64,000 nt of DNA from a virus. The stretch lies in IMG/VR virus record IMGVR_UViG_3300010396_000006, positions 32,001 through 96,000 of that record; one strand, written 5' to 3'. Under the pieces are notes generated by a model. It was given only the letters and a program-made list of their open reading frames with translations. It had not been told where the DNA came from and made no database searches. The position numbers and the translations under genes are program-made. This document shows, one piece after another, positions 37,256 through 41,194 of the stretch; positions within the stretch are counted from its first letter, which is position 1; each line of letters opens with the position of its first letter.

Positions 37256-38415
37256 CTGCGGGTAATGACTGAGTTCTGACGGCTGTTTTGACGGAACATT
37301 TCGCATTCTGTGAGGAGGAATGATCGGTGAGACAGGTTGTTGACCGAATTACCTGCGATGACTGCGGTCGAGTCTACGAATTTGAGGCACTACGTACCGG
37401 CACGTCGCCCATCATCGCTCGATTTGATTCTCTCACGGAATGGCTAAAGCGACTCGGTTGGAATTGCCGGCCAATGGAAAACAGCCGATTTGCGTTTGAA
37501 GACAAGTGTCCCGACTGCATCCAGAGAAAGTGAATGGAGGATTGATGCGTTTTTTGGCGGCATTCTGGGGATCATTTGCAGTCGGTTTTTTGGGCTGCAT
37601 GGCGTGGCTGTATTTCAGTCTTTTTGACTCATCTGATCCGTCGTGGACAGACAGCTTCGGCTTCGGCGTGATTCTGATCTGCCCATTGGCAGGCGTGGCC
37701 CTCGGGGTAATTGCGACGGCCGTCGATCTGGTCGCCGTCGTTGCTTCGAAGTATTCGAGGAGAGGCTAAATGGATGACAAAAGGGTCGTGCGATTACTTG
37801 GGTTCTTGATGATTGGTTTGGCGATAGTCGCCGCAGCAACTTGCAGCAGTGGCGGATTCTCGGGAGGAACGTCCGGGCGGCTGAATAGGACGGCAATTTG
37901 GCCCGGCGGATTCGATCCGGGCAAGACGTGTCTTCCGTAACGACGCAACTAATCAGGTTCTATGAAGGGAGTGCGAACGTCGGCCACTTGGGCGGAATAC
38001 GTGTGGTGGTGAGGGATCAGTCCATTGAGCACGTCGCGAACTTCAATAATCGACCCAGAGACGTGACAGGCCGGAGAGACGGCCAATTTGAATTCATGTC
38101 CCGACCTGGGAGGGGAAGAGCGATGAGTCTCACGGCGTTGGAAAAATGCGATATTCGAAAATCGAACGCGGAGAGGATTCGCACCTTGTGGAGGGCGATG
38201 ACGCCAGTCCAGGGAGAGCAGCGAGTCATCTACCAATGTGGCGACTGCAAGAAATTGTTCGGCCGTCGCTTCGTTCCGTATGGCCTTGGCTACGGGCTTA
38301 CTGTTGGGTCGTGCGTATGCCAGTTGACTGGTCATCGTCCGATGCATGAAGTCGCTTCAAAGAATCCGTAGACGATAGCTGTTTGGTTCTGCGATCGGTT
38401 TTAGAGGGTAACTGA

Positions 38416-38859
38416 ATGATCAAATCCATTCCGAATATGCCGAAGCAAACCACGCCCACGAACTGCTTTTCGGCGTGTCTTGCGTCCGTCCTGGGCTGCT
38501 CGATCGAGAATGTTCCGTCAGGTGCCGACGGCGCGTCGTGGGATTGGGACGCCGTTCAACTGTGGCTTGCTGCCGAATTCGGTCTCCAGTTGCTGGAAGT
38601 GACATTCGGCGAAGGCGGGACGATCTATCCGATACCGGTTCGCGTGCCGTGCATCATTACTGGAAATTCGCCGCGTGAGTGCGTTACCGGTCGGCACGCC
38701 GTTGTGGCTGAAGCGATTGGTCTGGATGGATTCTGCGTGATCCACGACCCGCACGCGTCTAACGATGGACTGGATGGCGAGCCGACGCATGCGTGTTTCT
38801 TCGTTCCGATCAAGGTGACGGACGTATTCATGCACGAGCGAGAAAATGTTGAGCGGTAA
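38416..38859 (+). CDS. Peptidase C39-like (papain-fold) protein
   Basis: QTTPTNCFSACLASVLG...HAVV...IHDP. Confidence 0.6.
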   Translation: MIKSIPNMPKQTTPTNCFSACLASVLGCSIENVPSGADGASWDWDAVQLWLAAEFGLQLLEVTFGEGGTIYPIPVRVPCIITGNSPRECVTGRHAVVAEAIGLDGFCVIHDPHASNDGLDGEPTHACFFVPIKVTDVFMHERENVER

Positions 38860-38884
38860 ATTTCGCATTCTGATTGGAGGATTG

Positions 38885-39397
38885 ATGAAAAAGCTGTTGA
38901 GTGTTGTTTGTGTTTTTGGATTGTGCTGCGTGGTCTTCGGTGAAGGCGTTGGCCGCACAATCGAGGAAGACATGGGGCTTCCGCCGTTGCCAAAAGCAGG
39001 GAAGGCCACTGAGCAGGAAGCATTGAATTATCGCCGCTGGGAAATTGTCGAAGTCAATGGCAAAGATCGATACAAAGCGAAATGGCTGGAGAAAAAATTA
39101 GACGACATTCGACCATATCTCGAATCGAATACCGGCGGTGTGTACGTCGACATCGAACATGGGACTACTGGACTGCACAACGTCTCAGCGATTCTGGTCC
39201 AATACGACAAATTCAAGGACCATCGAAACTTGGCCGTGTTCAACAAATCCAAAAATATCGCTCTGCTGGCGTTCGACAGGTGGAACACGTGCTGTTTGGG
39301 CATCGCCTCTCCCGACGCTGACGAAATTATTCGACGGCACGGATTTAAATGCTCGGCGTTAGACGTGGCTCGAATGCTGAGGCTGATGGAGGAATGA
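38885..39397 (+). CDS. Secreted hypothetical protein
   Basis: GGAGG RBS; MKKLLSVVCVFGLCCVVFG signal peptide. Confidence 0.65.
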   Translation: MKKLLSVVCVFGLCCVVFGEGVGRTIEEDMGLPPLPKAGKATEQEALNYRRWEIVEVNGKDRYKAKWLEKKLDDIRPYLESNTGGVYVDIEHGTTGLHNVSAILVQYDKFKDHRNLAVFNKSKNIALLAFDRWNTCCLGIASPDADEIIRRHGFKCSALDVARMLRLMEE

Positions 39398-39419
39398 CGG
39401 AACTAATCAGGCACCCGCT

Positions 39420-39596
39420 ATGGAAAACGAAATTCGCCGATGCGACTACTGTGGAGCGCCAATCGACCCTATTGATTGGTGTTATGGGTGTATGCGCGGC
39501 GAGAAGTGCCACAAGCGTCGTCGCAAAAGGAAAGACGCCAGGCATTGCAGCAGCGAATGCCAGAGGGCCGACCATCGCGACAAACGTAAGTCTTGA
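39420..39596 (+). CDS. 58-aa Cys-rich basic protein (not in ORF track)
   Basis: CDYC..CYGC..CSSEC; exactly fills the gap between two linkers. Confidence 0.55.
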   Translation: MENEIRRCDYCGAPIDPIDWCYGCMRGEKCHKRRRKRKDARHCSSECQRADHRDKRKS

Positions 39597-39626
39597 ATTC
39601 ATGTCCCGACCTGGGAGGGGAAATCG

Positions 39627-41194
39627 ATGCCAGAGAAGCCAACATTCATGACGGCCGATGAATATGACGCCATCGTTCAGGCGGATGGAGCGACATGCGC
39701 ATGCTACGAGGGATTCAGCCGGATGATGGCAGTTTGGCGCTACGAGAATCCCGACGACGATCGAAGCGACTACGAGATTTTAGAATCGCCGGAGTTTCAG
39801 AAATGGAACACGCCGGCTGAAACGCGATAGCTGTTTGGTTCTGCGATCGATACTTAATGGAACACAACCGCATTCTATTCGGAGATGACGATGCGAGGTC
39901 TTTTGTTCTTCATGCGTTCTGAAAAGGTCGATCACCAGTATCGCAATCAGAACGAGGCAAAGCTGGCCAAAACACTGAATGAAGCGAGGGCAACCTTGGC
40001 TAATTTGGTCAATACCTACATCGGCCGATTGTATGAGTTCCGGACGCCGGAAGATGTTTGGATTGATGTCGATCCTGACGTCGAAAATGGAAAGCGGCTC
40101 GGTCTCGTGTCGAAACATGGTGAAGGCCATCAACTCATTATCCGCGATGGTGAGGACGATCATGGATTGCACGAACTGGATCATCACGAATTGACGGAAC
40201 TGTTCGAGCGATTGCCAGAACTCAAACGGGAAGTCATCAAGGCATCGATTGATCACCTGGGCGAGATCCAATCGGCAATCGCATTCTTTCGTGAGAATGT
40301 TCTTGGCGTTGCTTCTGACGAGGAAGAGTGAATGTCGCCTGAAGAACAAGAATCAGTCAGGGCAGAAGAAAAACGTCACTACGAACTCGGCGTGATGTTC
40401 CTGTTTGATATTGCCGACACCATCGACATAGAAAAGCCAAGCACCGTCGATGCCGAATTTGGATTGTTCAATACCGTGGCGATGCTGATGATTCGATTAA
40501 ACCAGCATCTTGACGGGCCGACAAAAGACCGCATGCGTGATGACGGTTCAATCCAAAAGATGGTCTCTGCTGGGGCTATGGCGATGATGGACGAATTCAA
40601 GCGAATCCGCGAGGAAGATCTGAGAAAGAACTGAATTATGATTATCAGTTTTTATGAGATGCAATTGTTCTGTGATGCACAAAATCATGTGAATCCAAAA
40701 GGTCCGTCGCAGAGTTCATTCACTGGAACAACAGTAGAGTCAGCCAAGCAGCATGCTGCCAGATGCGGGTGGACAATCAAAAATTATCGCAAGAGAGAAG
40801 TTTGCCTATGTCCGAAGTGTGGTCCAAAGGCCAAGATCAAATGAAAGGCGGTCCAATGTCTGAACAAGACGAAATGAAACAGTTGCTTCATGACATCGGT
40901 TGCCGTTGCCGTCATCCGAATTCAAGTCAGGAATGGTACATTCTGGACGGCATTTCGATTGATTTCTACCTGTTGTTTGACACGTCACTGGACGATGAAG
41001 AACCAAAGCCGGGAACTTGCGACGTCTTTCTACTCGAAACCGGGGATGTTCCGGGGTCGCATGATTGCCGAATTGCCGCTGATTTAATTCCGAAACAGAT
41101 CATCGCGTTGCTGCGATTAATGAATCTGCCGTTGCTGAAAGAACGAGTCAGAGACGTGCTGGAAGTCAGGGCCGCGATCTACGGTCTGGTGTGA
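39627..41194 (+). other. Five small hypothetical genes
   Basis: Packed ORFs: 39627-39830, 39885-40331, 40332-40634, 40638-40844, ~40841-41194. Confidence 0.55.

What the first reader, a model, noticed from the sequence alone, without database searches (positions are those of the whole stretch)
37298..39876. Periodic linker scaffold holding unrelated genes (cassette-like array)
Seen: five short intergenic sequences recur in the order D-E-C-A-B-D-E-C-A-B-(D). D ATTTCGCATTCTG (37298, 38860, partial 39869); E TGGAGGATTGATG (37535, 38875); C GACG(C/G)AACTAATCAGG (37942, 39396); A TTGAATTCATGTCCCGACCTGGGAGGGGAA (38088, 39593); B CGATAGCTGTTTGGTTCTGCGATCG (38373, 39825). The genes between equivalent linkers share no visible similarity, and some slots are empty. 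A and B can form small hairpins, and the linkers supply stop codons or RBSs. Inference: slot-specific recombination boundaries for swapping accessory genes.
Basis: partly seen in the sequence, partly recalled or inferred. Interest (0 to 1): 0.78.

Follow-up and report, generated by a model that had tools for sequence, protein, structure and literature searches.

The report
Repeated gene-junction scaffold with swapped genes
In an uncultured 105-kb phage, two and a bit tandem copies of one set of five short gene-junction sequences hold entirely unrelated small genes, which most likely records accessory genes being swapped by recombination at the junctions, a new layout of a known way phages shuffle genes.

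Summary
Five short sequences recur once each, in the same order and at the stated coordinates. A is 30 nt and B 25 nt, both exact; E is 94%, C 89% and D 82% identical. Nothing like A or B occurs elsewhere in the complete 105.6-kb genome. Each island spans a stop codon, a ribosome-binding site or a start codon. Identity falls to random level immediately outside each island. The genes between equivalent islands are unrelated by DNA, BLASTP and profile comparison, and for g5 versus g9 by secondary structure too. g4, g5 and g6 belong to three separate families found in other phages. A decayed third D copy precedes g9, so the array reads D-E-C-A-B | D/E-C-A-B | D.

No promoter, terminator, significant hairpin or Rfam family lies in the islands. 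The genome has no tyrosine or serine recombinase, so an integron-like system is not supported. It does encode an Erf annealing protein and a YqaJ exonuclease. One low-depth contig from an unrelated sample matches g4 and B, then continues into a different gene.

Best reading (about 0.55): these are conserved boundary sequences used for short-homology recombination, and an unequal crossover between two variants made the array tandem. It is a new variant of a known kind. This scan has already found single-family junction linkers in other phages.

The parts
36150..36245 (+). Possible decayed, compacted older copy of the scaffold: C-like 36150-36161, D/E-like plus the first g6 codons 36180-36218, A-like 36217-36243
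   Evidence: The best matches of C, D/E and A in the 2.7 kb upstream all fall within 67 nt (2 of 300 shuffled regions are as tight). The D2/E2 alignment has p=0.002. Weak; treated as a lead.
37292..37324 (+). Junction D1 (13-nt exact core ATTTCGCATTCTG, then SD GAGGAGG); translation start region of g1
37327..37533 (+). g1, 68 aa, CxxC...CxxC zinc-ribbon-like. An extra gene between D and E that unit 2 lacks. It is flanked by two similar SD-bearing sequences.
37531..37547 (+). Junction E1 (g1 stop TGA, SD GGAGG, ATG of g2)
37545..37769 (+). g2, 74 aa, hydrophobic (GRAVY hydropathy index +1.0) membrane protein; no homologues found
37770..37940 (+). g3, 56 aa, small membrane protein
37939..37957 (+). 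Junction C1, directly after the g3 stop codon
37958..38087 (+). Empty slot between C1 and A1 (130 nt; only a 16-codon ORF)
38088..38117 (+). Junction A1 (30 nt exact; ends in SD GGGAGGGG, 5-6 nt before the g4 ATG)
38123..38371 (+). g4, 82 aa, member of a widespread small CxxC family (59 clusters at 50% identity, best E 2e-22)
38373..38397 (+). Junction B1 (25 nt exact), 1 nt after the g4 stop. A relative in run X2 stays alike up to 38411 and then differs.
38416..38859 (+). g5, 147 aa, papain-fold (peptidase C39-like) Cys/His protein of a widespread phage family (phrog_5845)
38854..38887 (+). Fused junction D2/E2 (holds g5's TAA, the D core, the E SD and the g6 ATG)
38885..39397 (+). g6, 170 aa, signal-peptide protein; four homologues elsewhere (83-49% identity)
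39393..39411 (+). Junction C2 (overlaps g6's TGA)
39420..39596 (+). g7, 58 aa, basic Cys-rich zinc-finger-like protein
39593..39622 (+). Junction A2 (holds g7's TGA and the SD of g8)
39627..39830 (+). g8, 67 aa, acidic; unrelated to the g4 family (hhalign probability 0.1%)
39825..39849 (+). Junction B2 (holds g8's TAG); the slot behind it is empty
39869..39885 (+). D3, decayed third copy of D/E in front of g9
39885..40331 (+). g9, 148 aa (or 146 aa from the ATG at 39891). Orphan: the only relatives found are 97% variants. Unrelated to the g5 and g6 families.

Best explanation
The region is a tandem iteration (two full periods and the start of a third) of one scaffold of five gene junctions. 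It lies in the accessory-gene block between the DUF932 gene and the MuF-like head-morphogenesis gene, inside the head-gene module that runs from the portal-fusion gene to the capsid gene, in a complete 105.6-kb phage.

What the junctions are. Each is a stop-to-start seam. D, E and A carry the ribosome-binding site of the next gene. B and C sit directly behind the stop codon of the previous gene.

How the pattern arises. The junctions behave as conserved boundary (linker) sequences. Related phages keep them while the genes between them are replaced. Replacement most likely happens by recombination that starts in the short shared junctions, catalysed by the phage's own Erf single-strand annealing protein and YqaJ-type exonuclease.

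Why the scaffold is tandem. The most economical route is one unequal crossover at the D-type start region between two co-infecting variants:
- parent 1: D-g1-E-g2-g3-C-A-g4-B-g5-D'-g9
- parent 2: D/E-g6-C-g7-A-g8-B-D'-g9

This explains why D2 abuts the g5 stop, why the B slot of unit 2 is empty, and why a D remnant precedes g9.

Prediction. The exact A and B pairs should let the array contract again (deletions of 1505 and 1452 bp), giving new gene combinations.

Shown here: the repeats, their seam positions, the unrelatedness of the slot genes, the absence of site-specific recombinases, the presence of Erf and the exonuclease, and one natural alternative gene behind B.

Inferred: that recombination actually uses the junctions, and the two-parent history.
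For: 1. Five colinear islands at 82-100% identity have flanks at random identity, 6-16 of 40 positions.

2. Interleaved colinear pairs cannot be built from separate repeat-flanked insertions. They require the scaffold to have been copied as a whole (reasoning).

3. The slot contents are not homologues.
- BLASTP all-against-all finds nothing.
- DNA alignments of equivalent slots score no better than shuffles.
- hhalign gives g4-family vs g8 0.1%, g5-family vs g9 0.2%, and g6-family vs g2, g3 and g9 at most 0.2%.
- g5 is a confident alpha+beta papain fold, while g9 is predicted helical at low confidence.

4. g4, g5 and g6 each have homologues at up to 60-83% identity elsewhere. Where the DNA could be fetched (g4 and g5 loci), none of the neighbouring genes and none of linkers A-D lie beside them. 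They are therefore independent, wandering accessory genes.

5. 55 of 55 positions in A and B are identical, yet the adjacent proteins share nothing. This is not what divergence after a duplication gives.

6. A (30 nt) and B (25 nt) reach the minimal pairing length reported for a Rad52-type phage annealing protein (23-27 bp for Red-beta, against 31-34 bp for RecA). An Erf/Exo pair worked as well as lambda Red in that study (PMC3945230). This genome encodes Erf and, 270 bp downstream, a YqaJ exonuclease.

7. A contig from another study's run (X2) matches 38155-38411 with 0-2 differences. It then continues with unlike sequence holding a different ATG-led frame, 4 nt before g5's ATG.

8. The same kind of footprint occurs elsewhere.
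- A 31-nt exact pair flanks one gene in this genome (L102 6201 and 6853). The second copy still reads as an alternative intact C-terminus of the upstream gene.
- A 22-nt exact pair flanks one gene in the relative L001, each copy right after a TGA.
- A third copy of C lies 1 nt after a stop codon at genome position 26562.

9. Two assemblies from different pipelines, of 105,647 and 105,665 bp, both encode the array's genes. The source run's contig covers the stretch without a difference. The longest sequence shared at the unit join is 13 nt, too short to cause a k-mer misjoin.
Against: - No close relative's array could be read, so 'same junctions, different genes in relatives' rests on one 151-nt contig at depth 2.
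- D, E and C have exact cores of only 11-15 nt, well below any measured efficient pairing length.
- The junctions could be kept identical by a function not tested here, such as a protein-binding site.
- Slot lengths are loosely similar between the two units (391/505, 130/181, 255/202 nt). That is also what very old paralogues would show.
- The source run's contigs show only the full-length array and no recombinant forms. Contigs drop rare variants, so this does not settle the matter.
Confidence: 0.55

Rival explanations
1. Passive leftovers. The scaffold was duplicated recently, and each gene was then replaced by separate illegitimate (homology-independent) recombination events that selection kept only when they fell at gene ends. 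On this reading the islands are what was left untouched, not substrates of recombination.
For: - This is the standard account for most phage mosaic joints (PMC3029335).
- The islands have sharp edges.
- The breakpoint in X2 is not at the edge of B but 14 nt beyond it.
Against: - It needs at least four independent, precise replacements.
- All of them must fall within the short time in which 55 nt of A and B took no substitution.
- The phage has an annealing recombinase suited to 25-30-nt identities.
Confidence: 0.15
2. Regulatory sites. The five islands are distinct translation-start or operator sequences (for example targets of a translational repressor or a processing enzyme). They were copied with the block and are kept by selection for expression control. 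Gene turnover around them is incidental.
For: - D, E and A contain strong SD sequences at a proper distance from the starts.
- All islands sit at stop-to-start seams.
- A is conserved for 20 nt upstream of its SD, more than ribosome binding needs.
Against: - No promoter, terminator, Rfam family or above-chance structure is present.
- A and B each occur only twice in the genome, whereas a regulon would be expected to have more sites.
- Regulation does not explain the colinear order or the complete replacement of the genes.
Confidence: 0.15
3. Old tandem duplication. The slot genes are paralogues that have diverged beyond recognition, while the junctions stayed constrained.
For: - Slot lengths are loosely similar in the two units.
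- Several small genes in the area are Cys-rich zinc-ribbon-like proteins (g1, g4, g7), a class in which homology is hard to see.
Against: - Profile comparisons give probabilities of 0.1-3.5%.
- g5 keeps up to 73% identity with homologues in unrelated contigs, yet would have to have lost all likeness to its neighbour.
- The B slot of unit 2 is empty, and g9 sits behind a D copy.
- 100% identity over 55 nt is incompatible with that much elapsed time.
Confidence: 0.05
4. A dedicated site-specific cassette system (integron- or shufflon-like), in which a recombinase recognises each linker.
For: The layout is array-like, with short repeats at every cassette edge.
Against: - The genome is rated 100% complete and has no Phage_integrase or Resolvase family gene.
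- The linkers are 13-38 nt, all in direct orientation, and lack palindromic arms and significant folds.
- There are five different sequences instead of one site family.
- The breakpoint in the relative is offset from the linker.
Confidence: 0.03
5. Assembly artefact: two strain variants of one locus were concatenated by the assembler.
For: The DNA comes from a metagenome, and the two units look like alleles.
Against: - Two assemblies from different pipelines both encode the array's genes, and a Logan contig of the source run spans the stretch without a difference.
- The sequence shared at the unit 1/unit 2 join is only 13 nt exact, below assembler word sizes.
- g5's native C-terminus (RENVER, compare RENSER in P0003) runs straight into D2.
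Confidence: 0.02

Closest known systems
Short conserved boundary ('linker') sequences at module joints of lambdoid phages (the modular theory of Susskind and Botstein, and boundary sequences as discussed in PMC3029335 with its references 21 and 22; the attribution of the theory is from my own knowledge)
   Same: - Short conserved sequences lie exactly at gene boundaries, with non-homologous genes on either side.
- They are proposed to act through general or phage-encoded homologous recombination.
- No dedicated site-specific enzyme is involved.
   Different: - Here five different junction sequences occur in a fixed order, and that order is itself repeated in tandem within one genome.
- The classical cases are seen between genomes, usually as one sequence at one joint.
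- The population-level comparison that defines the classical cases is almost entirely missing here.
PeSL (promoter-early stem-loop) regulatory cassettes of T4-type phages (Arbiol et al. 2010, PMC2839356; Comeau et al. 2014, PMC4122927)
   Same: - Conserved elements run from the upstream stop codon to the SD and start of the next gene.
- They are concentrated among small orphan genes in a plastic region.
- Recombination between them inserts, deletes or replaces the flanked genes.
   Different: - PeSLs span about 100 bp, contain a sigma-70-type promoter and a strong terminator hairpin, and form one family of about 50 copies per genome.
- The islands here are 13-38 nt and have no promoter and no significant hairpin.
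- They are five distinct sequences present two or three times each.
Gene gain flanked by a duplicated gene end in mycobacteriophage Island3 (gene 68; PMC3029335)
   Same: - A single small gene is flanked by a direct repeat of about 50 bp derived from the 3' end of the upstream gene.
- The repeat is attributed to recombination between short homologies.
- The 31-nt pair in this genome (L102) and the 22-nt pair in L001 have the same form.
   Different: That case is one repeat pair around one gene. Here there are five interleaved pairs, which requires the whole scaffold to have been iterated.
Integron gene-cassette arrays
   Same: Promoter-less single-gene cassettes lie in one orientation, separated by short recombination-associated sequences.
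   Different: - There is no integrase gene.
- There is no attC architecture (paired inverted core sites, folded bottom strand).
- The linkers differ from slot to slot.

Membership tests
Integron cassette array | IntI-type tyrosine recombinase encoded next to the array | tested here: not met
   PF00589 finds nothing in the complete 105.6-kb genome, while the control genomes all give hits. PF00239 also finds nothing.
Integron cassette array | attC sites: imperfect inverted repeats of about 57-141 bp that fold as a hairpin | tested here: not met
   The linkers are 13-38 nt. No inverted repeat lies at any linker. Fold energies equal those of shuffles.
PeSL cassettes of T4-type phages | Sigma-70-like early promoter inside the element | tested here: not met
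   No promoter-like site lies between 34767 and 40663 on the + strand. The consensus used is that of E. coli, so promoters of another type would be missed.
PeSL cassettes of T4-type phages | Stable stem-loop acting as a terminator or attenuator | tested here: not met
   z-scores range from -0.14 to +1.5 for all linker folds. Terminator-like hits do not exceed the shuffle expectation.
PeSL cassettes of T4-type phages | Spans stop codon to SD and start, upstream of orphan genes in a plastic region | tested here: met
PeSL cassettes of T4-type phages | One sequence family in many copies per genome | tested here: not met
   There are five unrelated sequences, with 2 copies each (3 for C and D) in the whole genome.
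Boundary/linker sequences of mosaic phages | Short conserved sequence at a gene boundary flanked by non-homologous genes | tested here: met
Boundary/linker sequences of mosaic phages | Homology between related genomes ends at or in the conserved sequence | tested here: inconclusive
   There is one case. The X2 contig stays alike through g4 and B1 and diverges at 38411, which is 14 nt after B1 and 4 nt before the g5 ATG. It is a single contig at depth 2.
Boundary/linker sequences of mosaic phages | A general recombination function able to use short homologies | tested here: met
   Erf (PF04404, E 2.7e-17) and YqaJ exonuclease (PF09588, E 2e-19) lie at genome 17013-18139. Their activity was not tested.
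Tandem paralogue array | Genes at equivalent positions are homologous | tested here: not met

The most novel reading that the evidence does not exclude
The five position-specific junctions would form an 'addressed' cassette scaffold. Each slot has its own short address, so recombination driven by the phage's Erf and exonuclease, between relatives or between tandem units, replaces a gene only with an alternative for the same slot. Order and expression signals are kept. Unequal pairing expands and contracts the array, giving combinatorial sets of accessory genes. That would be a recombinase-free functional analogue of an integron that is selected for as such.
Probability: 0.12. Interest if true: 0.8.

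Novelty: new variant of a known kind. Interest (0 to 1): 0.45.

Why it matters
How phages exchange single small genes without damaging their neighbours is an old question. Conserved boundary sequences were proposed decades ago but are seldom visible.

Here one genome preserves two 'alleles' of the same multi-junction scaffold side by side. Every junction is kept and every gene is replaced. This gives an internal, assembly-independent view of junction-anchored gene replacement.

The case also makes testable predictions: deletion products of 1505 and 1452 bp, and alternative genes behind each junction in relatives. If the position-specific order proves to be maintained in a population, it would show that such joints can keep gene order while contents turn over. 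The single-family linkers described so far do not do this.

Tried and rejected
- **Exact scans for the linkers.** A and B were searched in IMG/VR and the A core in JGI metagenome contigs. No match, so slot contents in relatives could not be tabulated.
- **The look-up of encoding contigs.** The contigs of the closest g5 and g6 homologues, including the 39.8-kb contig encoding the 83% g6 homologue P0055, could not be read.
- **Other searches for relatives.**
  - The head-morphogenesis protein gave only one IMG/VR relative, L001 at 56% identity. Its gene order differs and it has no homologues of the small genes. The same protein found nothing in genome contigs.
  - The region found nothing in cultured phages.
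  - About 100 loci with g5 homologues and 6 with g4 homologues carry no copy of A-D, only four chance-level one-mismatch matches to the 13-nt E motif, and none of the other genes.
  - g6 has no relative in IMG/VR.
  - The alternative sequence seen in X2 was not found in IMG/VR, in genome contigs or in this genome.
- **Cluster look-ups.** I first read the lack of 'SRC' variants for g2-g4, g6 and g8 as a hint of variable content. I rejected this because SRC holds the exact ORF 39349-39651 and appears fragmentary.
- **Sequencing runs.** No RNA holder was listed. Run X2 covers only 38155-38411 of the 8 kb laid, and the uncovered parts are not evidence of absence at depth 2. The source run's contigs show no variant forms, but contigs cannot show rare ones.
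- **A B-like remnant upstream of D1.** Not significant, p=0.2-0.27.
- **A remnant of a g7-like gene in the empty C1-A1 slot.** Not significant, p=0.22.
- **Composition.** GC and GC3 of all slot genes resemble the rest of the genome, so composition gives no sign of foreign origin and does not discriminate between explanations.
- **Other recombination genes.** RecT and AAA_24/Sak4 families are absent.

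
Full report
**Setting**

The window is bases 32001-96000 of a single 105,647-bp contig with a 123-bp terminal overlap. IMG/VR classes it as having direct terminal repeats, and CheckV rates it 100% complete.

It is a tailed phage. Its recognisable genes are:
- large terminase, 15070-16797;
- a 2235-aa portal fusion protein, 23977-30684;
- a Clp_N protein, 33316-34125;
- a DUF932 protein, 34847-35593;
- a MuF/SPP1-gp7-like head-morphogenesis protein, 41249-42742;
- an HK97-type capsid protein, 49109-50482.

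All of these lie on the + strand. The finding sits in a run of small + strand genes (35621-41194) between DUF932 and the head-morphogenesis gene.

**The observation**

| Junction | Copy 1 | Copy 2 | Identity |
|---|---|---|---|
| A | 38088-38117 | 39593-39622 | 30/30; 38 nt at 95% with one gap, reaching the ATG |
| B | 38373-38397 | 39825-39849 | 25/25 |
| C | 37939-37957 | 39393-39411 | 17/19 |
| E | 37531-37547 | 38871-38887 | 16/17 |
| D | 37292-37324 | 38854-38886 | 27/33 |

- Shuffled sequence never gives a second copy of A or B.
- In a census of exact repeats over the whole genome, A and B rank third and fourth. Only the terminal overlap and one 31-nt pair are longer.
- The order D-E-C-A-B is the same in both sets, and the sets are not interleaved.
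- The 'partial D' at 39869 is a plausible decayed third copy (shuffle p=0.0005; 2 of 167 other start regions score as well).

The array therefore reads D1-g1-E1-g2-g3-C1-(empty)-A1-g4-B1-g5 | D2/E2-g6-C2-g7-A2-g8-B2-(empty) | D3-g9.

**What the islands are**

Each island is a stop-to-start seam.
- g5's TAA lies in D2, g1's TGA in E1, g7's TGA in A2 and g8's TAG in B2.
- C1, C2 and B1 begin within one or two bases of a stop codon.
- D, E and A end in strong Shine-Dalgarno sequences 5-7 nt before the next start.

They carry no other recognisable signal.
- No sigma-70-like promoter lies in the array, and terminator-like hits do not exceed the shuffle expectation.
- No Rfam family is present.

Identity drops at once to the random level outside each island, 6-16 matches in 40.

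**Are the genes between them diverged duplicates?**

No.
- BLASTP all-against-all finds nothing.
- Local DNA alignments of equivalent slots score no better than shuffles or non-equivalent pairs.
- Three of the genes belong to separate, independently conserved families:
  - g5 has at least 33 homologues at up to 73% identity. Its model is confident (pLDDT 89), an alpha+beta fold closest to C39-type papain-fold peptidase domains, with Foldseek TM about 0.53 and weak E-values.
  - g4 matches 59 clusters of small CxxC proteins.
  - g6 has four homologues.
- Profiles of these families do not match the slot-equivalent genes: hhalign probability is 0.1% for g4-family vs g8, 0.2% for g5-family vs g9, and at most 0.2% for g6-family vs g2, g3 and g9.
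- g9 is an orphan, predicted mostly helical at low confidence.
- The roughly 106 loci that carry g4 or g5 homologues hold none of the neighbouring genes and no copy of A-D. The only linker matches are four one-mismatch hits to the 13-nt E motif, at chance level.

**What this implies**

Interleaved, colinear repeat pairs cannot be produced by separate insertions that each leave one flanking repeat. The scaffold must have been copied as a unit.

All 55 positions of A and B are identical, yet the adjacent coding sequences share nothing. The genes were therefore replaced; they did not diverge in place. Either the contents of a duplicated scaffold were exchanged afterwards, or two variants of the scaffold that already differed in every slot were joined.

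The second route needs only one event: an unequal crossover between the D-type start region behind g5 in one parent and the D region in front of g6 in the other. It accounts for three details:
- D2 abuts g5's native C-terminus (compare RENVER with RENSER in the homologue P0003).
- The slot behind B2 is empty.
- D3 precedes g9.

Both routes need junctions that persist while genes turn over. That is the defining property of boundary or linker sequences.

**Mechanism**

The complete genome has no tyrosine or serine recombinase, so an integron-like or shufflon-like system is not supported.

It does encode an Erf-family annealing protein and, 270 bp downstream, a YqaJ-type exonuclease (genome 17013-18139, outside the window). 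In a lambda-based assay, an Erf/Exo pair was as efficient as lambda Red. The minimal efficient pairing length is given as 23-27 bp for Red-beta and 31-34 bp for RecA (PMC3945230). A (30 nt) and B (25 nt) reach that length. D, E and C do not.

**Evidence from elsewhere**

- A run from another study (X2) holds two 151-nt contigs that match 38155-38411 with 0-2 differences. The match covers the 3' part of g4, B1 and 14 further bases. The second contig then continues with unlike sequence containing a different ATG-led frame, 4 nt before g5's ATG. This is direct but thin evidence (depth 2, one contig) that a natural relative has another gene behind B. Its position also argues against a fixed cutting site.
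- The same footprint occurs twice more on a smaller scale.
  - In this genome, a 31-nt exact pair flanks one gene (L102 6201 and 6853). The second, non-coding copy still reads as an alternative C-terminus of the upstream gene, whose stop overlaps the next start.
  - In the only IMG/VR relative, L001, a 22-nt exact pair flanks one gene, each copy right behind a TGA.
- A third copy of C (15/15 identical to C2) lies one base after a stop codon at genome position 26562.
- Upstream at 36150-36245, the best matches of C, D/E (with the first g6 codons) and A cluster within 67 nt. Only 2 of 300 shuffled regions give as tight a cluster, and the D/E alignment has p=0.002. This may be a collapsed older copy.

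**Is it an artefact?**

Unlikely.
- Two assemblies made by different pipelines (105,647 and 105,665 bp) both encode the array's genes, and a Logan contig of the source run spans the stretch without a difference.
- The only exact sequence shared at the unit join is 13 nt.

**Comparison with what is known**

The nearest concept is the conserved boundary sequence of mosaic phages (discussed in PMC3029335). The nearest worked example is the PeSL cassette of T4-type phages (PMC2839356).

The PeSL membership test fails on three points: no promoter, no terminator hairpin, and no single multi-copy family. The behaviour is nevertheless alike.

This scan has already reported single-family junction linkers in several other phages. 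What is different here is that five distinct, promoter-less junctions stand in a fixed order that is itself iterated. Such an arrangement would keep slot order during exchange and would allow the array to expand and contract.

**Verdict**

- It is a new variant of a known kind.
- Interest is moderate, limited mainly by the lack of readable close relatives.

Noticed in passing
L102 6201-6231 and 6853-6883 (genome 102201 and 102853, outside the window): A 31-nt exact direct repeat flanks a single 201-aa gene (L102 6244-6849). The first copy is the 3' coding end of the upstream gene. The second copy is non-coding but still reads as an intact alternative C-terminus (…YLPTEEE, stop overlapping the next ATG). 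This is the footprint of a gene gained by one unequal crossover.
   Followed up: partly
L001 4691-4712 and 5093-5114: In the only IMG/VR relative (56% identity in the head-morphogenesis protein), a 22-nt exact repeat stands directly behind two TGA stops and flanks one 121-aa gene. In that relative DUF932 follows the head-morphogenesis gene directly, and the small-gene block is absent.
   Followed up: partly
L103 6562-6576 (genome 26562): A third copy of junction C (GACGGAACTAATCAG, 15/15 identical to C2) lies one base after the stop codon of an unrelated gene and 29 nt before the next start.
   Followed up: partly
window 36150-36268: Decayed C-like, D/E-like and A-like sequences are clustered within about 95 nt. 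The A-like part forms the 5' arm of a perfect 13-bp hairpin (36233-36245 and 36256-36268). This may be a collapsed older copy of the scaffold.
   Followed up: partly
genome 17013-18139 (L105, L106; outside the window): An Erf-family annealing protein lies in a 324-aa open frame, with a YqaJ-type exonuclease (224-aa frame) 270 bp downstream. Together they form a two-component recombination module.
   Followed up: partly
window 38416-38859: g5 is a C39-like papain-fold protein. Cys17 is nearly invariant and His94 and Asp111 are invariant in its family. The family is widespread in uncultured phages and has no Pfam model (phrog_5845). Its function in phages is unknown.
   Followed up: partly
window 38885-39397: g6 and its 83% homologue P0055 (on a 39.8-kb contig) are 40/41 identical over the signal-peptide end, then only 27/44, then alike again. 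This looks like a mosaic breakpoint inside the gene close to the D/E junction. The DNA could not be fetched.
   Followed up: no
window 35621-40844: Many of the small genes in this block are Cys-rich zinc-ribbon-like proteins (35621-35905, 35980-36201, 36956-37255, g1, g4, g7, 40638-40844). This is an unusual concentration of mini zinc proteins inside a head-gene module.
   Followed up: no
genome 13600, 51433, 101157 and, inverted, 63488: The 15-18-nt sequence GAAAATCAGTAAGATTTC, which is partly palindromic, recurs four times. It probably belongs to the promoter or leader elements that other notes of this scan describe.
   Followed up: no
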